A DNA stretch of 64,000 nucleotides. Source: Puia sp. (lineage in GTDB: Bacteria; Bacteroidota; Bacteroidia; Chitinophagales; Chitinophagaceae). The translations under genes and the position numbers were made by a program. Below, piece after piece: positions 7,171 to 34,628 of the stretch. The DNA is taken from NCBI GenBank assembly GCA_035501395.1, contig DATJWK010000020.1, positions 3,851 to 67,850 on the forward strand. Direction: 5' to 3'. The notes under the pieces were generated by a model, which saw only the letters and a program-made list of their open reading frames with translations, did no database searches and had not been told where the DNA came from. Position 1 is the stretch's first letter. Every line of letters begins with the position of its first letter.

Positions 7171-10100
7171 TTAGAATTGGAGGTTAACGCCGATGTTGAA
7201 AGCGCGGGTGGATGGGTTGTTGGCATTGACGGTGATCTGCCGGCTTTGACCGTTCGTCCCCCCCGCGCCCACGCTGCCGCCTGCCGCCGTCGATGCAACC
7301 GCGCCGCCGTAGCCGTTGCCTTCCGGATCGGGCCCATAACCTGCTTTTACAAAAGGGGAATACAGGATAAAGGGATTTAATGCCGTCAGATAGACGCGAA
7401 GATTGGTGATGCCGGATCTGCCCAGGGCCCTTGCCGGAATGGTATAGCCGAGGTTGATGCTGCGCATTTTTATAAAGGAGCCATCCATATATCCCAGGGT
7501 CGATGCAAAGGGAAAGGATTGAAGACTGGCATCCGGTCTGGGGAAGGCGTTTGTCGGATTGCTGCGGGTCCAGTAGTCCACTTTCATCTGGTTGACGCGG
7601 CTCTGCATGAAAAAGTCATAGCCGTTTGCCGAACCATCCGTCTGCAGGTAAGGAACAACCATCTTCATGCCCATGCGCGCGAAGATCACGAAGTTCAGGT
7701 CGAATCCCCTATAGGTCATGGTACTGCTAAATCCGCCTTCCCACTTTGGCTGGAAATTGCCGAGGATCTGCCGGTCGTTCTGGTCGATCTTTCCGTCGGG
7801 TTTGCCATTCGGTCCGCTGATGTCCTGCACGTGGATATTTCCAGGTAATTGCGCCGGCGAAGTCTGTGCCTGTAATTTGCCGTCGACGGAGTCCGCGGTC
7901 TGCCAGATCCCCACCTTCTTTACGTCGTAGATGACGGTCAGTGGCTGTCCTACGAACCAGCCGTCATTGATGTCCTTCGTTACGCCAGGGATGATTTGGG
8001 TGATCTTTTCACGGCTCAGGAAGAAATTGAAGTCGGTCGTCCAACCGAAACCGCCGGGCGAAGAAGGCTTGATATTGACGGTCGTCAGATTGATCTCGAC
8101 TCCTTTGCCGGTGGTTTTACCCAGGTTGCTGACAATGCTGCTCGCACCGTTGCTCGCCGGGAGGGTTTGCTGCAGGAGGATGTCCTTCGTATTTTGCTGA
8201 TAGACGTCGATCGTACCGAAGATCCGGTTCTGGATAAGACCGAAGTCGAAGCCGAAATTTGTCTGTGCCGTTTGTTCCCAATGAAGGTGCGGATTGGCCA
8301 GTTGGGTCACCAGGAATGTCCCGACCCCACCCGCGGATGCCTGGCCGAAGTTATAGGTGCTGGTGGTCAGCAGACCCAGGGTACTATAAGGCCCGACGCC
8401 CTGGTTGGATGTGACGCCCCAGCCTGCTCTCAATTTCAGGTTGCTCAGCCAGGCGAATCCCTTCATAAATTCTTCGTTCATCATATTCCAGCCCAGTGCG
8501 AAGGCCGGATACGTAAAGTAGCGGTTACCCGGTGAAAGAACGGAAGCTCCGTCTGTTCGCACGGTTGCCGTCAGCAGGTATTTCTCGTTAAAGGCGTAAT
8601 TCACGCGTCCCATATACGAGATAAGTCCACGTTCATAGAAGTTGCTTGGATTGTTTGGGTCCACCCCAAGTGTCGTTGCGAGGGCAAGGTTGCCGTCCAG
8701 TACGGAATTTGCGGGGAATCCGGTTCCCTGGAAACCGCTATTTTGGAAATGGTCTTTTTGGGCGCTGTATAACCCGGTGATAGTAATGTGGTGCTTCTCC
8801 GCAAAGGTCTTGTCATAGGTCAGCACGTTTTCCCAAACCCATGAATAGGTTTCGGTATTGGCGACCGTTGCCGTTGCGCTCGCCAGCGAAGTATTGGCGT
8901 TTACAAACGTCTGCGGACCGCTGTAGCTACCGGTATAATTTTGTGCATAATTCAACCCGATATTCATCCGGTAACGCAAACCGGGCAGGATATACCATTC
9001 GCCGTATAGGCTATTAAAAGTCTGCAGCCGGCGGGTGCGGTTCAGGATCTCGCTCTTGGCTGTCTTCAGCGTCAGCGGGTTGACATAGGTGGTCGCGTCG
9101 ATGGAACCGGCCAGGGGGTAGAGGTTGAGTGTTCCGTTCGGATTATAAGGTGCATCGAGCGGGCTCAAACGCATAAGGGTCCCTGTGACACCCGTACCGC
9201 CGGGTAGATTGGTATAAGCCAGTGAATTGATCGTGTTGATCCCTATCTTCAGGTGGCTGCTTACCTTATGATCGATAGTCGTGCGAAGCGCAAACCGTTC
9301 GAAGTTTTGGTTGGGAATGATCCCTTGCTGGTCGTAATAAGAAGCGCCTATGCCGAATTGGGTCGTCTCGGTGCCGCCGGAAAGACTCAAATTATTGCTT
9401 GTAGTCATTGCGTTCCGGTAGATCAGCTTCTGCCAGTCCGTATTTACTCCTGCGTTCAGACCGGAGTCTTCAAGCGGCGTCAATCCGTAAACCGTTGTAT
9501 TCGGTGTGGCGGAATTCAGGGCAGCGGCATCCGCCTTAAATTGCGCATACTCTTTTCCATTAAATACCCGCAGTTCTTTAAGGATGCTTGAAATACCATA
9601 GTATCCATTGTAGGTCATCTGTGATTTCCCTACCCGTCCCCGCTTGGTGGTGATGATGATAACGCCGCCGGAGCCCCGGGAACCATAGATAGCCGTCGCC
9701 GAAGCGTCCTTTAATATATCAAGGTTGGCGATATCATTCGGGTCGATGTCGTTCACGCTGCCCGAGAATGGGATCCCGTCAAGTACCACCAGCGGCTGGT
9801 CGAGGCCGTCGCTGACGGAGTTGGCATTCCCGGTGCCGGTTATGGGATTGGTATATGAAGAGGTCGCCATCGACCGGTTTCCCCGGATGCGGATCTGGCC
9901 GCCGCCACCCGGTGAAGCGCTGTTGGTTACAATATCCACGCCGGCTGTCCGGCCCTGCAACTGGTTGATGAAGTTTGGTTCAGGCACCTGCGCCAGCGTG
10001 TTTGCGGATACCCTTGCAACCGAGCCCGTAACGTCACTTTTCCGCTGTGACCCATACCCGACGACAATCACCTGGTCCAACGAGCTGCTGGCTGAGGGTA

Positions 10101-27283: not shown

Positions 27284-27556
27284 ATGCCAACAGTTAAATT
27301 CACATATGCGCTTCGAAGGTTCTTTCCCGGGCTGAAAGATACGCCGGCCAGGGCAACAAGCCTTGCGGCTGTGCTCGCTGAGCTGGAGGACCGCTATCCC
27401 GGAGTAAGAAGTTATATTCTCGACGAACAGGGGCAGCTTCGGCGTCATGTCAATATCTTTATAGACGGGGTCGTGATCAGTGACCGGAATAAACTGAGCG
27501 ATCCGTTTGGAGAAAATAGCGAAATTTATATCATGCAGGCGCTTTCGGGCGGATAA
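27284..27556 (+). CDS. MoaD/ThiS-like ubiquitin-fold protein ending in a free Gly-Gly
   Basis: 90 aa, RHVNIFIDG, C-terminus IMQALSGG*. Confidence 0.9.
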   Translation: MPTVKFTYALRRFFPGLKDTPARATSLAAVLAELEDRYPGVRSYILDEQGQLRRHVNIFIDGVVISDRNKLSDPFGENSEIYIMQALSGG

Positions 27557-27572
27557 CCATTTCAAAAGATTT

Positions 27573-28652
27573 ATGCAACCGACGCTTCTATTAGGAACAA
27601 GAAAAGGCCTTATCGCCTATCATGCGAACGGCAGGGGCTGGAAGATGGAAAATCTTTCCTTCGAGGGACAGCCGGTATCCATTGCGTATTCCGATCCCAG
27701 GAATCAAACCTGGTGGGCATGCCTCGATCATGGCCACTGGGGCGTTAAATTACATCGGTCTGCCGACCGGGGAAGGACCTGGGAGGAAGTGCCGGCTCCG
27801 GCATATCCGGAAGGAGAAGAGGTCAAGGACGGCGTCCCTGCCGCTACCCGATATATCTGGTCCATGTCGCAAGGTGGCCGGGAGCTGTCGAAACTCTGGA
27901 TCGGTACCGATCCGGGCGGACTTTTTCTTAGCAACGACGGCGGAGCCAGCTTTCGCCTTGTCGAATCGCTGTGGCAGCATCCTACCCGCAAGACCGGCTG
28001 GTTCGGCGGGGGCAGGGATCAGCCTGGAATTCATTCTATCGTCATCGATCCACGCAACGACGATCACCTCTACGTGGGGATCAGCTGTGCAGGCGTATTT
28101 GAAACGACGGATGGTGGTCGCCATTGGTCTATCCGGAACAAAGGGCTGAAAGCTGAATTCTTGCCAAACCCCGATACAGAAGTGGGATATGATCCGCATA
28201 TCCTTGTCGCCGCTCCCACGAATCCCGAAATCCTCTGGCAACAAAATCATTGCGGTATTTTCCGGTCCGCCGACGGCGGTTTGAGCTGGCAAGACGTCAG
28301 CCAGCCGAATGGCCCGGCCCGGTTTGGATTCGCCATTGCCGTCGCCGATGACAACCCCGACCAGGCCTGGGTTGCTCCCGCAGACAGCGATGTCACCCGA
28401 ACAGCCATCAAAGGAGCACTTTGTATCTGTCGCACCGACGACGGTGGAAAGAATTGGAAGGAGTACCGAACGGGGTTGCCGCAAAAGGATTGCTTCGACA
28501 TCGTCTATCGTCATGCACTGGCTTGTTCCGGAAATGGTGTTGCGTTTGGGACGACGACAGGGAATCTCTTCTTTTCACCGGACAGAGGGGAAAACTGGCA
28601 GGCAATCAACAACTACCTGCCCATGGTTTATTCGGTTCAATTCACGAATTAG
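27573..28652 (+). CDS. Cytoplasmic Asp-box (BNR) beta-propeller protein
   Basis: Six Asp-boxes (SADRGRTW, SNDGGASF, TTDGGRHW, SADGGLSW, TDDGGKNW, SPDRGENW); no signal peptide. Confidence 0.88.
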   Translation: MQPTLLLGTRKGLIAYHANGRGWKMENLSFEGQPVSIAYSDPRNQTWWACLDHGHWGVKLHRSADRGRTWEEVPAPAYPEGEEVKDGVPAATRYIWSMSQGGRELSKLWIGTDPGGLFLSNDGGASFRLVESLWQHPTRKTGWFGGGRDQPGIHSIVIDPRNDDHLYVGISCAGVFETTDGGRHWSIRNKGLKAEFLPNPDTEVGYDPHILVAAPTNPEILWQQNHCGIFRSADGGLSWQDVSQPNGPARFGFAIAVADDNPDQAWVAPADSDVTRTAIKGALCICRTDDGGKNWKEYRTGLPQKDCFDIVYRHALACSGNGVAFGTTTGNLFFSPDRGENWQAINNYLPMVYSVQFTN

Positions 28653-29650: not shown

Positions 29651-30091
29651 TCAATATATTTTAGCCAGCTGCGCGCCGTGTTTGTTGAGGAAATCGATTG
29701 GTGTAGTCACCGGCAGTGCCGGGGTGTCCAGCGGGAAAAGCGGGTAACTCCAGGTAATGAAATAGTCCAGGCGATGATGGAGGGCCGTATAGTAGGAAAT
29801 CGCGCCGGGGATGTCCTCGATCTTTGATTGTAAGGCGATGACAGTGGTTTCCAGCCCTGCATCGATGATCTGCACGGACGCGATCAAGGTGAGCAGCAGT
29901 TGTTTCGCCACCTTCGTTCCATATGCTTTTTGCAATGCCGGCCCGATGTCCCGCAAAATTGCGGAGGAAACAAAGACCTGAACCCGCCCGGCGACCGCCC
30001 ATTGTACCAGATCCCTGGTCATTCCATAGCTACTGCCTTTTAGCAAATAGTCTAGCAACACATCCGTGCCGAAAAAGATCCTAAATGCCAT
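29651..30091 (-). CDS. PIN-domain (VapC-like) toxin, degenerate active site
   Basis: IFFGTDVLLD, SKIED, LDYFIT pattern; downstream of and overlapping a small RHH gene. Confidence 0.7.
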   Translation of the reverse strand: MAFRIFFGTDVLLDYLLKGSSYGMTRDLVQWAVAGRVQVFVSSAILRDIGPALQKAYGTKVAKQLLLTLIASVQIIDAGLETTVIALQSKIEDIPGAISYYTALHHRLDYFITWSYPLFPLDTPALPVTTPIDFLNKHGAQLAKIY

Positions 30092-30302
30092 CTGGCTCTT
30101 TTATGATTGCATTTGTCTTTTTGGTTACCCGCGGCTCTAACCGATCCATGTACTCAAGAATATTGTTATGTTTAACCGGCTCAGTAACAATACGAAAATA
30201 ATTTTCCACCAACTCGGAAACACTCATATTCTTGCGGGCGGCATAGGCTTTGACGGCTTCCAGGAGGGCGCCGTCGATAGTGAGGTTTAGTCTTTCCTTC
30301 AT
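30081..30302 (-). CDS. Ribbon-helix-helix antitoxin (DUF6364-like)
   Basis: RLNLTIDGALLEAVKAYAARKNMSVSELVENYF. Confidence 0.8.
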   Translation of the reverse strand: MKERLNLTIDGALLEAVKAYAARKNMSVSELVENYFRIVTEPVKHNNILEYMDRLEPRVTKKTNAIIKEPDGI

Positions 30303-31291: not shown

Positions 31292-31834
31292 TTATTTCGA
31301 GTCGGCCGGGAGCCGCGTGCGGGCCAATTCCCAAAGGACAATGCCCGCGGCAATCGACACATTCAGCGAATGTTTCATCCCCCATTGCGGGATCTCGACA
31401 CTCCCGTCGCACAAGGCCAGGGCGGCACTATCCACTCCCGTCACCTCGTTGCCGAATACTACGGCCAGCGGACCCGATACAACCGCCGGTAGCGTATTCA
31501 GGCGCATACTCCCCTCCGTTTGCTCCACCGCGAGCACCGTATACCCTTCCTCCTTCAGGGACAGAATCGCGTCGGCGGTCGCCGGGAAATGGCGCCATTC
31601 GACTGTCTCCGTCGCGCCAAGGGCTGTCTTGTGGATATCGCGATGAGGCGGCTGCGGCGTATACCCGCAGAGATATATCCCGCGGATAAGAAAGGCATCA
31701 CCGGACCGAAAGACACTTCCCACATTATGCATGCTCCGGATATTGTCCAGAACGACGATCACCGGCATTTTCTCCGATTGTCGAAACTCATTCACCGATT
31801 TACGGCCCAACTCATCCATCACCAATTTGCGCAT
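31292..31834 (-). CDS. TrmH/SpoU family RNA methyltransferase
   Basis: VLDNIRSMHNVGSVFR, VFGNEVTG, IPQWGMKHSLNVS. Confidence 0.92.
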   Translation of the reverse strand: MRKLVMDELGRKSVNEFRQSEKMPVIVVLDNIRSMHNVGSVFRSGDAFLIRGIYLCGYTPQPPHRDIHKTALGATETVEWRHFPATADAILSLKEEGYTVLAVEQTEGSMRLNTLPAVVSGPLAVVFGNEVTGVDSAALALCDGSVEIPQWGMKHSLNVSIAAGIVLWELARTRLPADSK

Positions 31835-31936
31835 AGACAATGGTAATTCACTGCTGATACATTTATGCCCCGCTTACCCGATTTTATTTGCCGATTTCCC
31901 TGCAATCTTTCGCATCGCCATTTGTCTGTGCTTTCT

Positions 31937-31944
31937 TACATTTG
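31937..31944 (+). promoter_or_regulatory. -7 box TACATTTG, 5 nt upstream of the mutS ATG
   Basis: Exact TAnnTTTG match. Confidence 0.6.
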
Positions 31945-31949
31945 TTGAA

Positions 31950-34628
31950 ATGGCTAGTGCAAAAAGCCGCGCAAAAAGCGGCGCAAAAAGCGGCGCAAAA
32001 AGCGGCGCAAACAGCGGCGCGGATACTCCGCTGATGCAGCAACATCGGGCGATCAAACAACGATATCCCGACGCGATCCTGCTTTTCCGCGTCGGTGATT
32101 TTTATGAGACGTTTGGCGAAGACGCGATCACCGCTTCCGGGATCCTCGGGATCACGCTCACGAAACGGAACAACGGCGCGGCGGCTTCGAGCGAATTAGC
32201 CGGCTTTCCCTATCACGCCCTGGACACCTATTTGCACAAGCTTGTCAAAGCCGGTCATCGCGTCGCCGTCTGCGACCAGCTGGAGGACCCCAAGTCGGTG
32301 AAAGGGATCGTGAAGCGGGGGGTGACGGAGATGGTGACGCCGGGGGTGGCTATGAACGACAAGCTTCTGGAGGGCAACCAGAACAATTTCCTCGCAGGAA
32401 TTTTCTTCCCGGAGAACTGGCCGGGGCAAGATAGCGGAAAGATCGGTATCTCCTTCCTCGATATCTCGACCGGCGAATTTTTTCTGGCAGAGGGCGACAC
32501 CGAGTACATCGATAAATTACTCCAGACGTTCCGGCCCGCAGAGGTCATCTTTCAACGATCCTTCCAACGGGCATTCAAAGAGGTGTTCGGCCAGAAGTTC
32601 TATACCTATACCCTGGAAAGCTGGCTGTTCGAAGAAGGTTTTGCCAGGGAGACCATCCTCCGGCATTTCCAGACCCATTCGCTAAAAGGGTTTGGGATCG
32701 ATGACAGAAAGGCCGCCGTGATCTCAGCCGGAGCCGTCCTGCATTACCTGAAAGACACCGAGCATCCCAACCTTCAACATATTTCGTCCATCCAGCGAAT
32801 CGACCGCGAAGAATACCTCTGGATGGATAAATGGACGGTCCGCAACCTTGAGCTGCTGGGATCTTCCTATGACGGCGAACAGCGACATTCGCTGTTGAAC
32901 GTGCTTGACAACACCGTTTCGCCGATGGGGGCGCGGCTGCTAAAGCGATGGCTGCTCATGCCGCTAAAGGACCGGGCCGCCATCGAGAGGCGGCTTGACG
33001 CGGTGGAGCTTCTCATCAAGGAGCCTGACGGGCGCGCTGCGCTGACACAACGCATCCGCCATTGCGGGGATGTCGAAAGGCTGGTGGCCCGCATCCCGGT
33101 CCGCAAGACCGGTCCGCGCGAACTGATCCAACTGGCCCGCGGACTGGAAGAGATCGTACATATCCGGGCGGCCGCACAGCGCTTTCCGGAGGGATGGCTG
33201 AAGGATCGTTGTCTTTCGCTCGACCCTTGCCCGCAGGTGGCGGAACGGATCGTACGGACGATAGCGGAGAATCCGCCGGCTGCCGCCGCCAAGGGCGATT
33301 TCGTGCGCCCTGGGGTGCATGCCGAACTGGATCGGCTTCGCCGGATCGCCAGCGGTGGAAAGGAATATGTGGCCGGCCTACAGCAAAAGGAAGCGGGCCG
33401 TTCGGGGATTTCGACCCTCAAGGTCGGCTTCAACAGCGTATTCGGCTACTACCTCGAAGTCACCAACTCGCACAGGAATAAAGTACCCGCCGACTGGATC
33501 CGCAAGCAAACGCTTGCCGGCGCCGAACGGTATATCACGCCGGAACTGAAAGAGTACGAAGAGCAGATCACCGGGGCCGAGGACAAGATCAGGACACTCG
33601 AAATGGAAATTTATGAGCAGCTGTTGGTTTTCCTGCAACAAACCCTTGCACCGCTGCAAGCGAATGGCCACCAGCTCGCGATACTTGATTGCCTGTTGTG
33701 TTTCGCGCAAAATGCGTTGCAATACAATTATAAGAAACCGCAACTGCACGAAGGAGGAGAGCTCGAGCTGAAAGGGAGCCGTCATCCGGTGATCGAACGC
33801 CGGCTTCCCGCCGGCGAGCCGTATATCGCCAACGACGTGCTGCTCGACCCGGCGTCGCAACAGATCATCATTCTTACCGGACCCAACATGAGCGGCAAAA
33901 GCGCCTTGCTCCGGCAGACCGCTCTTATTACGCTCATGGCGCATATCGGCAGCTTTGTCCCCTGCGACAGCGCAAGGGTCCCGCTGACCGACAAGATCTT
34001 TACCCGGGTCGGAGCGTCCGACAACCTGAGCGGCGGGGAGTCGACATTTATGGTGGAAATGAACGAAACCGCCAGCATTCTCAATAACCTGAGCGAAGGA
34101 AGCCTGATCCTGCTCGACGAGATCGGCCGGGGCACGTCCACTTACGACGGAATTTCCATTGCCTGGAGCATCGCCGAGTACCTTCACCGGTCGCCTTTCA
34201 AACCAAAGACTTTGTTTGCCACCCACTACCACGAACTCAACGAGCTCGAGACCAAATTCCCCGGCATTCTCAACTTTCATATTACCAACAAGGAGGTCGG
34301 CAATAGGGTCATCTTCCTTCGCAAGCTTGCACCGGGCGGCAGCACGCATAGTTTTGGCATCCATGTCGCGAAAATGGCCGGTATGCCCCTTTCGCTTATA
34401 CAACGGGCGGAAGAGATCCTTCGTCAGCTCGAAGAGAAACATGTCGGATCGCCCGTCGGGGAATCGCTGAAAAAGATCGCCGCACCGAAAATGCAGCTTT
34501 CGATATTCGATGCGCATACCGAAACGTTCGGGCGGATCCGGAAATTACTGGAGGCAACGGATATCAACCGGCTCACACCGGTAGAAGCGCTGCTGAAGTT
34601 ACAGGAAATCAAAAACGAGCTGAGGTGA
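31950..34628 (+). CDS. mutS: DNA mismatch repair protein MutS
   Basis: TPLMQQH, FRVGDFYETF, GPNMSGKS, DEIGRGTST, FATHYHEL. Confidence 0.97.
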   Translation: MASAKSRAKSGAKSGAKSGANSGADTPLMQQHRAIKQRYPDAILLFRVGDFYETFGEDAITASGILGITLTKRNNGAAASSELAGFPYHALDTYLHKLVKAGHRVAVCDQLEDPKSVKGIVKRGVTEMVTPGVAMNDKLLEGNQNNFLAGIFFPENWPGQDSGKIGISFLDISTGEFFLAEGDTEYIDKLLQTFRPAEVIFQRSFQRAFKEVFGQKFYTYTLESWLFEEGFARETILRHFQTHSLKGFGIDDRKAAVISAGAVLHYLKDTEHPNLQHISSIQRIDREEYLWMDKWTVRNLELLGSSYDGEQRHSLLNVLDNTVSPMGARLLKRWLLMPLKDRAAIERRLDAVELLIKEPDGRAALTQRIRHCGDVERLVARIPVRKTGPRELIQLARGLEEIVHIRAAAQRFPEGWLKDRCLSLDPCPQVAERIVRTIAENPPAAAAKGDFVRPGVHAELDRLRRIASGGKEYVAGLQQKEAGRSGISTLKVGFNSVFGYYLEVTNSHRNKVPADWIRKQTLAGAERYITPELKEYEEQITGAEDKIRTLEMEIYEQLLVFLQQTLAPLQANGHQLAILDCLLCFAQNALQYNYKKPQLHEGGELELKGSRHPVIERRLPAGEPYIANDVLLDPASQQIIILTGPNMSGKSALLRQTALITLMAHIGSFVPCDSARVPLTDKIFTRVGASDNLSGGESTFMVEMNETASILNNLSEGSLILLDEIGRGTSTYDGISIAWSIAEYLHRSPFKPKTLFATHYHELNELETKFPGILNFHITNKEVGNRVIFLRKLAPGGSTHSFGIHVAKMAGMPLSLIQRAEEILRQLEEKHVGSPVGESLKKIAAPKMQLSIFDAHTETFGRIRKLLEATDINRLTPVEALLKLQEIKNELR
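31959..32018 (+). repeat. Five 12-bp tandem units (GCAAAAAGCGGC) in the first codons of mutS
   Basis: Units at 31959, 31971, 31983, 31995, 32007 encode AKSR-AKSG-AKSG-AKSG-ANSG. Confidence 0.95.

What the first reader, a model, noticed from the sequence alone, without database searches (positions are those of the whole stretch)
27284..28652. Ubiquitin-like protein (free C-terminal GG) paired with a cytoplasmic Asp-box beta-propeller, with no E1 or JAB nearby
Seen: a 90-aa beta-grasp protein ending LSGG, followed 16 nt later by a six-Asp-box propeller lacking a signal peptide. The propeller carries Cys/His loop motifs (CLDHGHWG, ISCAG, QQNHCG). No ThiF/MoeB, JAB, Moco or thiamine genes are in the window. 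Established: GG-ended beta-grasp proteins act as sulfur carriers or protein modifiers after E1 activation. Inference: the propeller is not a sialidase but a Ubl receptor or an enzyme using a thiocarboxylate or thioester at one of these Cys residues, forming an uncharacterised two-gene module.
Basis: partly seen in the sequence, partly recalled or inferred. Interest (0 to 1): 0.65.

Follow-up and report, generated by a model that had tools for sequence, protein, structure and literature searches.

The report
Sulfur-carrier ubiquitin-like protein with propeller partner
A small ubiquitin-like sulfur-carrier protein and a cytoplasmic seven-bladed propeller of unknown function form a two-gene cassette that is conserved, and often fused into one protein, across several bacterial phyla; the propeller is probably a new kind of partner for sulfur-carrier proteins, not the sialidase it is annotated as.

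Summary
A 90-aa ThiS/MoaD-family protein ending in LSGG (27284-27556) lies 16 nt upstream of a 359-aa Asp-box propeller with no signal peptide (27573-28652).

The pairing is not chance:
- 75 of 80 Bacteroidota loci keep the pair, with the tail Q[AS]LSGG invariant.
- The same pair and tail occur in Ralstonia, Cupriavidus, Mitsuaria and a Pseudomonas aeruginosa plasmid.
- Other clades have the reverse gene order.
- Ubl-linker-propeller fusions, with the GG kept, are abundant in metagenomes; the few that sources name are Actinomycetota and Thermoanaerobaculia MAGs.

The propeller has seven blades. It matches PDB 3b7f (function unknown) with TM-score 0.90 and fails the sialidase and GH74 membership tests.

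The residues invariant in every clade are T9, K11, H154, S171, H209, Q224, H226 and R313. By strand topology these are inferred to lie on the propeller's top face.

E1 and JAB genes do exist in this genome, on another contig. In relatives a MoeZ-type E1 is the commonest neighbour. In some Cytophagales-type loci the pair sits inside Moco and form-I CO-dehydrogenase clusters.

Best reading: an E1-activated sulfur carrier with a dedicated propeller acceptor whose substrate is unknown. I found no published function. First-stage readers of this scan flagged the same pair in other genomes.

The parts
27284..27556 (+). Ubiquitin-like sulfur-carrier-type protein, 90 aa, with a free C-terminal ...MQALSGG. 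It is the fourth ThiS/MoaD-family protein of this genome.
   Evidence: Pfam ThiS 28.8 bits against a 22.5 cut-off. The best solved relative is M. tuberculosis CysO, 3dwg_C, E=2.9e-6. Orthologs with an invariant Q[AS]LSGG tail stand upstream of the propeller in 75 of 80 loci and in Proteobacteria. The gene starts 11 nt after the rluD stop, so co-transcription with rluD is inferred.
27557..27572 (+). 16-nt spacer between the Ubl stop codon and the propeller start codon.
   Evidence: Read directly from the sequence. Estimated spacers in relatives range from about 11 nt to about 300 nt, and most are under 60 nt.
27573..28652 (+). Cytoplasmic seven-bladed Asp-box beta-propeller, 359 aa, of the 3b7f family (function unknown). 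Residues invariant across all clades are T9, K11, H154, S171, H209, Q224, H226 and R313.
   Evidence: phmmer to PDB 3b7f gives E=2.8e-62 over the full length. The AF2 model has pLDDT 93.3 and pTM 0.91. Foldseek matches 3b7f with TM-score 0.90, followed by GH74 (one of its two propellers), DAIP, Ycf48 and sortilin. Conservation table. The stop codon overlaps the convergent def gene.

Best explanation
The locus is an accessory two-gene cassette. It encodes a CysO/MoaD-like sulfur-carrier protein and its dedicated partner, a cytoplasmic seven-bladed Asp-box propeller.

**Proposed mechanism**
1. The genome's single MoeZ-type E1-rhodanese, on another contig, adenylates the Ubl's C-terminal Gly and converts it to a thiocarboxylate. 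The same E1 presumably also serves MoaD, ThiS and the CysO-like domain fused to its own N-terminus.
2. The Ubl then presents its conserved ...QALSGG tail to a pocket on the propeller's top face. That pocket is formed by the invariant T9/K11 (blade 1), H154 and S171 (blade 4), H209, Q224 and H226 (blade 5), D273 and R276 (blade 6) and R313 (blade 7).
3. There the sulfur is handed to a still unidentified acceptor.

**Shown**
- Conserved pairing in three gene arrangements, plus natural fusions.
- GG invariance.
- The fold, and the failed glycosidase membership tests.
- E1 presence in the genome and E1 adjacency in relatives.
- Co-occurrence with Moco genes.

**Inferred**
- Thiocarboxylation of the Ubl.
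- Docking of the tail at the top-face pocket.
- Sulfur transfer, and the acceptor.

The most likely biological setting, at about one in three, is maturation of xanthine-oxidase-family molybdoenzymes. That family includes Mo-Cu CO dehydrogenase, and the step would be supply of the sulfido ligand.
For: **Synteny**
- 75 of 80 Bacteroidota loci have the Ubl directly upstream with tail Q[AS]LSGG. No other gene family is shared by more than 11 loci.
- The same pair and tail occur in Ralstonia, Mitsuaria, a P. aeruginosa plasmid, Cupriavidus and Chondrinema.
- Two further clades have propeller then Ubl. One has tails such as AVSGG. The other has IAGG, and in G197 an E1 follows on the same strand.

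**Fusions (Rosetta stone)**
- All 120 best clusters found with a fusion query are about 441-485 aa and show the ThiS-plus-propeller architecture.
- In the alignment 'PAISGG' is invariant and is followed by a linker of variable length.
- Among 80 metagenome loci, 67 Ubl matches are fused and 11 free.
- This parallels MoaX, a MoaD-MoaE fusion that must be cleaved after its GG to be active (PMC4326299).
- This genome's own E1 carries a homologous N-terminal Ubl ending AIAGG and sits next to a JAB gene.

**E1 link**
- A ThiF+rhodanese E1 lies within 6 kb of the pair in 11 of 80 loci and abuts it in most.
- L097 reads E1-Ubl-propeller on one strand.
- One MoeZ-type E1 can serve several carriers (PMC3227635).

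**Phyletic pattern in 301 Bacteroidota genomes**
- Propeller homologs are found in 16.
- All 16 have a MoeZ/MoeB-type E1 (121 of 301 overall), MoaE (108 of 301) and an XDH-family enzyme (97 of 301).

**Moco and CODH contexts**
- L086 reads MocA-like, MoaA, TM protein, Ubl, propeller, coxMSL, and its CoxL carries VAYRCSFR.
- L087 reads MocA-like, MoaA, TM protein, Ubl, propeller, CoxG, XdhC.
- In G199 the propeller stands between XdhC and form-I coxMSL, while its Ubl ortholog lies alone elsewhere.
- On the Chondrinema plasmid, cysteine desulfurase, SufU, MoaE and XdhC lie next to the pair.

**Structure**
- The invariant residues sit in B-C loops or just before A strands of blades 1 and 4-7.
- The nearest characterised single-propeller folds, Ycf48 (solved with a D1 peptide) and DAIP (solved with a thermolysin fragment), bind peptides or proteins.
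Against: - No biochemical data exist, and no substrate can be named.
- The Moco/XDH link is not general. Only 1 of 80 fusion-clade loci has a Moco gene nearby, and 71 of 92 mainly unfused-pair loci (87 unfused, 5 fusion) have none.
- The phyletic association uses related genomes and cannot separate 'needs a MoeB/MoeZ E1' from 'serves Moco enzymes'.
- AF2 on a natural fusion did not dock the Ubl on the propeller. The junction has pLDDT below 50 and pTM is 0.75.
- In fusions with the shortest linkers the GG is tethered to the N-terminal strand. By strand topology that strand starts at the bottom face, so the tail could reach the top pocket only after cleavage. No protease gene accompanies the fusions.
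- Placement of the pocket is inferred from strand topology, not from coordinates.
Confidence: 0.55

Rival explanations
1. The Ubl is a protein modifier of the SAMP/Urm1/TtuB type rather than a metabolic sulfur donor. The propeller would be its main conjugation target, for example at the invariant K11, or its receptor or adaptor. The natural fusions would mimic the conjugate.
For: - The best NCBIfam match of the Ubl is SAMP1, though below cut-off.
- K11 is invariant and lies 11 residues from the propeller N-terminus, where fusions attach the Ubl.
- The closest characterised single-propeller folds bind peptides or proteins (Ycf48, DAIP).
- An E1 is the only enzyme these bacterial and archaeal conjugation systems need (my own knowledge of sampylation and TtuB).
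Against: - No JAMM/JAB deconjugase accompanies the pair in any locus.
- A dedicated one-target modifier would be unusual.
- The E1 neighbours carry a rhodanese domain, which points to sulfur chemistry.
- The Moco and CODH contexts fit sulfur transfer better.
Confidence: 0.15
2. The Ubl is a non-covalent structural or regulatory beta-grasp subunit of the propeller, with no C-terminal activation. The GG tail is conserved only because it inserts into the propeller. The fusions work uncleaved.
For: - Fusions are very common and are never accompanied by a protease gene.
- Most loci have no E1 nearby.
- Beta-grasp domains often act as adaptors (PMC1949818).
Against: - In fusions the linker length varies while SGG is invariant. 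That is the pattern of cleavable Ubl precursors such as MoaX.
- AF2 predicts a disordered junction and no fixed docking.
- E1-rhodanese is the top neighbour, and the propeller occurs only in E1-bearing genomes (16 of 16).
Confidence: 0.15
3. The Ubl is simply a spare MoaD for molybdopterin synthase, and the propeller is functionally unrelated to it.
For: All propeller-bearing genomes in the sample have MoaE. MoaE or MoaA lies near the pair in some loci.
Against: - This genome and G199 have a canonical moaD next to moaE.
- The pair is kept together, and even fused, far from any MoaE.
- The NCBIfam MoaD model scores below its cut-off.
Confidence: 0.05
4. The propeller is a glycoside hydrolase or sialidase, as annotated in public records, and its adjacency to the Ubl is incidental.
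For: Public names are 'exo-alpha-sialidase' and 'glycosyl hydrolase'. The fold resembles GH74 propellers.
Against: - There is no signal peptide.
- It is a single propeller, whereas the GH74 structures matched are about twice as long (704-778 residues, TM normalised to the target about 0.35) because they contain two tandem propellers.
- It has seven blades, against six in sialidases.
- BNR_2 scores 23.2 against a 31.4 cut-off, and NF045728 scores 79.7 against 175.
- Pairing and fusion with a Ubl are conserved across phyla.
- No carbohydrate genes recur nearby.
Confidence: 0.03

Closest known systems
MoaD-MoaE molybdopterin synthase and its fused form MoaX (M. tuberculosis)
   Same: A small GG-ended beta-grasp carrier is encoded next to, or fused in front of, its acceptor enzyme. 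It is activated in trans by a MoeB/MoeZ E1-rhodanese. In the fusion the GG is kept and must be exposed by cleavage (PMC4326299).
   Different: The partner here is a seven-bladed Asp-box propeller, not the MoaE fold. The genome has its own moaD-moaE. The substrate is unknown.
CysO-CysM-Mec (thiocarboxylate-dependent cysteine synthesis) with MoeZ
   Same: The window's Ubl is closest in sequence to CysO (3dwg_C, E=2.9e-6). The genome has a CysM-like, JAB and Ubl-E1-rhodanese operon whose Ubl domain is homologous to the window's Ubl. One MoeZ can serve several carriers (PMC3227635).
   Different: No PLP enzyme or JAB accompanies the window's Ubl. Its constant partner is the propeller.
PDB 3b7f (Reut_B4987, Cupriavidus pinatubonensis JMP134; JCSG 'putative glycosyl hydrolase with BNR repeats')
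   Same: Same family and fold: phmmer E=2.8e-62, Foldseek TM-score 0.90 at 36% identity. Related Cupriavidus and Ralstonia replicons in the plasmid collection carry the same Ubl-propeller pair.
   Different: It is a structure without an assigned function, so it adds the fold and nothing about mechanism.
Peptide-binding Asp-box propellers: Ycf48 (D1 peptide), DAIP, sortilin Vps10 domain
   Same: Asp-box propeller architecture. Ycf48 and DAIP were solved bound to a peptide or protein fragment. From my own knowledge, sortilin grips the free C-terminal carboxylate of neurotensin with an Arg. This is a plausible model for how a ...SGG tail could be held by R313 or R276.
   Different: Sequence identity is only 14-17%. 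Those proteins are lumenal or extracellular, and none works with a Ubl. Sortilin has ten blades.
GH74 xyloglucanases and GH33 sialidases
   Same: Asp-box (BNR) repeats and a beta-propeller fold.
   Different: GH74 needs two tandem propellers forming a cleft. Sialidases have six blades and are usually secreted. The family-specific models are not matched above their cut-offs.

Membership tests
ThiS/MoaD sulfur-carrier (ubiquitin-like beta-grasp) superfamily | Sequence match to the family model above the curated threshold | tested here: met
   PF02597 scores 28.8 bits against a 22.5 cut-off.
ThiS/MoaD sulfur-carrier (ubiquitin-like beta-grasp) superfamily | Free C-terminal Gly-Gly | tested here: met
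   The ORF ends ...LSGG followed by TAA. The GG is invariant in 75 of 75 orthologs and in the fusions.
ThiS/MoaD sulfur-carrier (ubiquitin-like beta-grasp) superfamily | A cognate E1-like adenylyltransferase in the same genome | tested here: met
   There is one ThiF-family E1 with a rhodanese domain on contig C62. An E1 is adjacent to the pair in 11 of 80 related loci.
ThiS/MoaD sulfur-carrier (ubiquitin-like beta-grasp) superfamily | Formation of a C-terminal acyl-adenylate and thiocarboxylate | not testable with these tools
   This needs mass spectrometry of the protein.
MoaD proper (MPT synthase small subunit) | Match to the MoaD equivalog or subfamily model, and pairing with MoaE | tested here: not met
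   TIGR01687 scores 23.2 against a 49.5 cut-off. A separate moaD sits beside moaE on C13.
SAMP1 (archaeal small modifier) | Match to NF041918 above the cut-off | tested here: not met
   38.6 bits against a 60 cut-off.
CysO | Operon with CysM and a Mec/JAB peptidase | tested here: not met
   No CysM or JAB lies near the pair in any of 172 loci. The genome's CysM-JAB operon uses its own Ubl, which is fused to the E1.
Sialidase (GH33) | Six-bladed propeller matching the sialidase-type BNR_2 model | tested here: not met
   PF13088 scores 23.2 against a 31.4 cut-off. The fold has seven blades. No sialidase appears among the 50 Foldseek matches listed.
GH74 xyloglucanase | Two tandem seven-bladed propellers forming the catalytic cleft | tested here: not met
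   The protein is a single 359-aa propeller. The GH74 structures matched are 704-778 residues, and TM-score normalised to the GH74 target is only about 0.35.
F510_1955 family glycosylhydrolase (NF045728) | Score above the curated cut-off | tested here: not met
   79.7 bits against a 175 cut-off.
Ycf48/HCF136 photosystem II assembly factor | Equivalog-level match | tested here: not met
   PRK13684 scores 23.6 against a 326 cut-off. The Pfam PSII_BNR hit is at repeat level only, 33.6 bits. TM-score is about 0.57.
3b7f family (uncharacterised cytoplasmic Asp-box propellers) | Full-length sequence and fold match | tested here: met
   phmmer E=2.8e-62 over residues 5-357. Foldseek TM-score 0.90, rmsd 2.3 Å.

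The most novel reading that the evidence does not exclude
The Ubl-propeller pair is a previously unrecognised sulfur-delivery route for the sulfido ligand of xanthine-oxidase-family molybdoenzymes, including the bridging sulfur of the Mo-S-Cu centre of aerobic CO dehydrogenase. The sulfur source for that centre was reported as unknown (PMC4240915). In this reading the Ubl thiocarboxylate is the donor and the propeller's His/Arg/Lys pocket holds the cofactor or the acceptor protein.
Probability: 0.2. Interest if true: 0.85.

Novelty: new variant of a known kind. Interest (0 to 1): 0.6.

Why it matters
Sulfur-carrier Ubls are the prokaryotic relatives of ubiquitin. Each known one has a defined acceptor enzyme: MoaE, ThiG, CysM, MetY, BexX and the tRNA thiolases.

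This cassette would add a new acceptor class, a beta-propeller. It is widespread: thousands of sequence clusters, in soil Bacteroidota, in metagenome lineages whose named members are Actinomycetota and Thermoanaerobaculia, and in Burkholderiales and Pseudomonas. A crystal structure has existed since 2007. Yet I could find no function for it.

Public records call the propeller 'exo-alpha-sialidase' or 'glycosyl hydrolase', which is very probably wrong. That name has already been read as a colonisation and biofilm factor in at least one paper.

If the link to XDH/CODH maturation holds, it would address the open question of where the sulfido sulfur of these enzymes comes from.

Tried and rejected
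1. **Docking via a natural fusion.** AF2 on the fusion alignment A3, used as a stand-in for a complex prediction, folded both domains. The junction came out disordered (pLDDT below 50) and pTM was only 0.75, so no docking geometry can be claimed. The tools return no coordinates or PAE, so the pocket was placed by strand topology only.
2. **Conserved neighbours.**
   - Apart from the E1 (11 of 80) and MoaA (6 of 80), nothing recurs around the unfused pair.
   - Around the fusions nothing functional recurs.
   - Moco, XDH and E1 genes are near only 1 of 80 fusion loci. A general Moco role by neighbourhood was therefore rejected for that clade.
3. **Ubl as the genome's MoaD.** Rejected, because a canonical moaD lies beside moaE.
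4. **Catalytic Cys.** Rejected as a family feature.
5. **Literature.**
   - Searches for MoaD/ThiS with BNR, propeller or sialidase, and for PA1355, PA1356, 3b7f, Reut_B4987, MoaD2 and protein thiocarboxylate, found no functional study.
   - 3b7f appears only as a 'not known' structure.
   - PA1356 appears once, described as promoting colonisation, adhesion and biofilm formation. I suspect this comes from its sialidase annotation, but did not check. The PA1355/PA1356 numbering for the P. aeruginosa pair is from memory and not verified.
6. **Wide alignment for a genome scan.** The first attempt to scan genome contigs with the broad alignment A1 failed for lack of a conserved stretch. A narrower alignment was used instead, and the 80 loci kept were all Bacteroidota.
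7. **Metal-site idea.** A three-His metal site (H154, H209, H226), by analogy with peptidyl-alpha-hydroxyglycine lyase or other metallo-propellers, was considered. It could not be tested.
Full report
**1. What is in the window**

The + strand carries a 90-aa ORF at 27284-27556 that ends ...IYIMQALSGG followed by TAA. After a 16-nt spacer comes a 359-aa ORF at 27573-28652.

The small protein matches Pfam ThiS above threshold, at 28.8 bits against 22.5. It scores below the cut-offs of the NCBIfam SAMP1 and archaeal MoaD models. Its best solved relative is M. tuberculosis CysO, 3dwg_C, at E=2.9e-6.

The large protein has six Asp-boxes and matches only generic Asp-box and Sortilin-Vps10 models. 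The sialidase-type BNR_2 model, the F510_1955 glycosylhydrolase model and the Ycf48 equivalog all score below their cut-offs. It has no signal peptide: residues 4-9 are already a strand of a confident model.

The Ubl starts 11 nt after the rluD stop, and the propeller stop overlaps the convergent def gene.

**2. Is the pairing real?**

Yes. A scan of one genome per species returned 585 relatives. The 80 best were kept, all Bacteroidota at 60-89% identity.

- In 75 of the 80 a Ubl lies directly upstream on the same strand, and every one ends in Q[AS]LSGG.
- Clustering all flanking ORFs showed that no other gene family is shared by more than 11 loci. The unit that is kept is the pair.
- The same pair, with the same QALSGG tail, is annotated as 'MoaD/ThiS family protein' plus 'exo-alpha-sialidase' or 'glycosyl hydrolase' on replicons of Ralstonia solanacearum, Mitsuaria, a P. 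aeruginosa plasmid and Chondrinema. ORFs with the same tail and position are present on an unannotated Cupriavidus metallidurans replicon.
- More distant propeller clades in Bacteroidota have the reverse order. One clade has tails such as AVSGG. Another has a divergent Ubl ending IAGG, which my first HMM missed. In G197 that Ubl is followed by an E1 on the same strand.
- Of the 16 Bacteroidota genomes (out of 301 sampled) that hold a propeller homolog, 13 have an adjacent Ubl and one (G199) has an unlinked ortholog.
- A genome of the same genus (G159) has rluD and def converging and overlapping, with nothing between them. In the window the 1.37-kb cassette is therefore an accessory element.

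**3. Natural fusions**

The 50%-identity library contains proteins of about 450 aa that are ThiS plus propeller. Searching with one of them returned 120 best clusters, all about 441-485 aa with that architecture. The few that sources name are Actinomycetota and Thermoanaerobaculia MAGs.

In an alignment of 30 fusions the Ubl end 'PAISGG' is invariant. It is followed by a linker of variable length and then the propeller's first strand, ELLVGTRKG. In 80 metagenome loci of this clade, 67 Ubl matches are fused and 11 are free, and all keep the GG.

This is Rosetta-stone evidence for a direct functional partnership. The pattern of an invariant GG with a variable linker is that of cleavable Ubl precursors. 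The closest precedent is MoaX, a MoaD-MoaE fusion that must be cut after Gly82 to work (PMC4326299). The window's own genome offers another example: its only E1 carries an N-terminal Ubl ending AIAGG and lies next to a JAB peptidase gene and a CysM-like gene.

**4. The propeller**

With a 40-sequence alignment AF2 gives pLDDT 93.3 and pTM 0.91. Foldseek against the PDB finds, in order:

- 3b7f, with TM-score 0.90. This is Reut_B4987, a JCSG structure that is seven-bladed and listed as 'not known' in PMC2716378.
- One of the two propellers of GH74 enzymes.
- DAIP, Ycf48 (including entries bound to a D1 peptide) and sortilin.
- No sialidase among the 50 matches listed.

The annotation as a sialidase or glycosyl hydrolase therefore fails the tests I could run. 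The protein is a single seven-bladed cytoplasmic propeller.

Conservation was compared across 80 Bacteroidota sequences, 4 proteobacterial sequences, 3 reverse-order sequences, 11 sequences with no Ubl match to my first HMM (a divergent downstream Ubl was later found for six of them) and 30 fusions. The universal residues are T9, K11, H154, S171, H209, Q224, H226 and R313, with D273, R276 and R139 nearly so.

- C227 is 80 of 80 in Bacteroidota, Gly in all fusions, and Asn or Cys in Proteobacteria.
- C172 is Ala in fusions.
- C50 is Ala or Ser elsewhere.

From the strand order of the model, each Asp-box follows strand C. The motifs GTRKG, DHGHWG, ISCAG, QNHCG and GTTTG are therefore B-C loops. 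H154, H209 and R313 sit just before A strands. On this inference the invariant residues ring the top entrance of the central channel in blades 1 and 4-7. A pocket of three His, two Arg and one Lys suits an anionic ligand such as a C-terminal (thio)carboxylate or a phosphate, and possibly a metal. This placement is inferred from topology, not read from coordinates.

**5. The activating machinery**

The genome (97% complete) has exactly one ThiF-family E1. It is a Ubl-E1-rhodanese fusion on contig C62, beside a JAB gene and a CysM-like gene. The genome also has moaA-moaD-moaE-mobA on C13 and a thiS beside thiC. The window's Ubl is therefore a fourth carrier and is not the genome's MoaD. One MoeZ-type E1 serving several carriers has been shown in mycobacteria (PMC3227635).

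In relatives the commonest neighbour of the pair is a ThiF+rhodanese E1. It lies within 6 kb in 11 of 80 loci and abuts the pair in most. L097 reads E1-Ubl-propeller on one strand.

In the 301-genome sample, all 16 genomes with a propeller homolog have:
- a MoeB/MoeZ-type E1 (121 of 301 overall),
- MoaE (108 of 301),
- an XDH-family Mo subunit (97 of 301).

Within the MoaE-positive genomes, 72 of 108 have an XDH-family enzyme, and all 16 propeller genomes are among those 72. The one-sided Fisher p is 8e-4. Kin are not independent, so these figures are indicative only. They also cannot separate a need for the E1 from a role in Moco enzymes.

**6. Hints at the biological role**

In three Bacteroidota loci (L086 is labelled Roseivirgaceae; G199 and L087 carry no family name) the pair or the propeller sits inside molybdenum-enzyme clusters.

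- L086 reads MocA-like, MoaA, a 132-aa membrane protein, Ubl, propeller, coxM, coxS, coxL.
- L087 reads the same up to the propeller and then CoxG and XdhC/CoxI.
- G199 has moaE-moaD-moaC-cysteine desulfurase, then moaA-moeA, a MocA-like gene, E1-rhodanese and XdhC. These are followed by a 147-aa membrane protein, the propeller, coxMSL, coxG and an AAA gene. Its Ubl ortholog (53% identity) sits alone on another contig.

The CoxL of L086 and G199 carries VAYRCSFR. From my own knowledge this is the signature of form-I Mo-Cu CO dehydrogenase.

Further contexts:
- The Chondrinema plasmid has cysteine desulfurase, SufU, MoaE and XdhC beside the pair.
- One fusion follows an XDH-type three-subunit enzyme.

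For Mo-Cu CODH the sulfur source of the active-site sulfide was reported as unknown (PMC4240915).

Against a general link:
- The window's genome has only a two-subunit XDH-family enzyme and no CODH.
- 71 of 92 mainly unfused-pair loci (87 unfused, 5 fusion) have no Moco, XDH or E1 gene within 6 kb.
- Only 1 of 80 fusion loci has one.

**7. Verdict**

The best-supported reading is an E1-dependent sulfur-carrier protein with a dedicated propeller partner, that is, a new acceptor class for a known kind of system. The substrate is unknown. A role in sulfuration of XDH/CODH-family cofactors is the leading but unproven candidate.

The rivals cannot be excluded without biochemistry. They are a SAMP/Urm1-like modifier with the propeller as target or receptor, and a purely structural beta-grasp subunit.

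I found no paper on the pair. First-stage readers of this scan flagged the same pair in several other genomes without resolving it.

Noticed in passing
window 29651-30302 (- strand): A 146-aa and 73-aa gene pair whose stop and start overlap lies between ruvX and the ubiA-like gene. A first-stage note on this window calls the small one an RHH antitoxin. I did not run a family scan on either. The same-genus genome G159 has ruvX directly followed by the ubiA-like gene, so this is a second small accessory insertion close to the Ubl-propeller cassette.
   Followed up: partly
own genome contig C62 (locus L003, 283-3196, - strand): An operon of a CysM-like cysteine synthase (312 aa), a JAB/Mec-type peptidase (147 aa) and a 495-aa fusion of a CysO-like Ubl (ending AIAGG), a ThiF E1 and a rhodanese. 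This is the only E1 in the genome. Several other Bacteroidota E1 ORFs in the sample are also about 490-530 aa, which suggests the same fusion.
   Followed up: partly
L114 (G199:C7:121500-140500) and L086:3289-10259: Bacteroidota gene clusters whose CoxL carries the VAYRCSFR loop, with the propeller at the head of coxMSL. The clusters also include MocA-like, MoaA, XdhC, CoxG and AAA genes.
   Followed up: partly
L086:4993-5391, L087:5293-5694, L114:11263-11706: A 132-147-aa predicted membrane protein with no Pfam match stands immediately upstream of the Ubl or propeller in the CODH-linked loci. The G199 copy has Cys-rich CxxC-like motifs at its N-terminus. The G199 and L086 copies are barely alike in sequence.
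   Followed up: partly
protein P0205 (704 aa, from the 50%-identity library): A Ser/Thr protein kinase domain is fused N-terminally to a propeller of this family. This is another architecture, and it may point to a sensing or binding role for the propeller.
   Followed up: no
window 31731-34628 (+): The longest mutS ORF begins far upstream of the conserved MutS N-terminus and includes a repetitive AKSGAKSGAKSG stretch. The true start is probably internal.
   Followed up: no
L115 (G043:C15) 8339-9690: Two LVIVD-repeat ORFs lie directly downstream of the pair, followed by a convergent MoaC/MoaB, MoaE and E1-rhodanese operon and a TauE sulfite-exporter gene.
   Followed up: no
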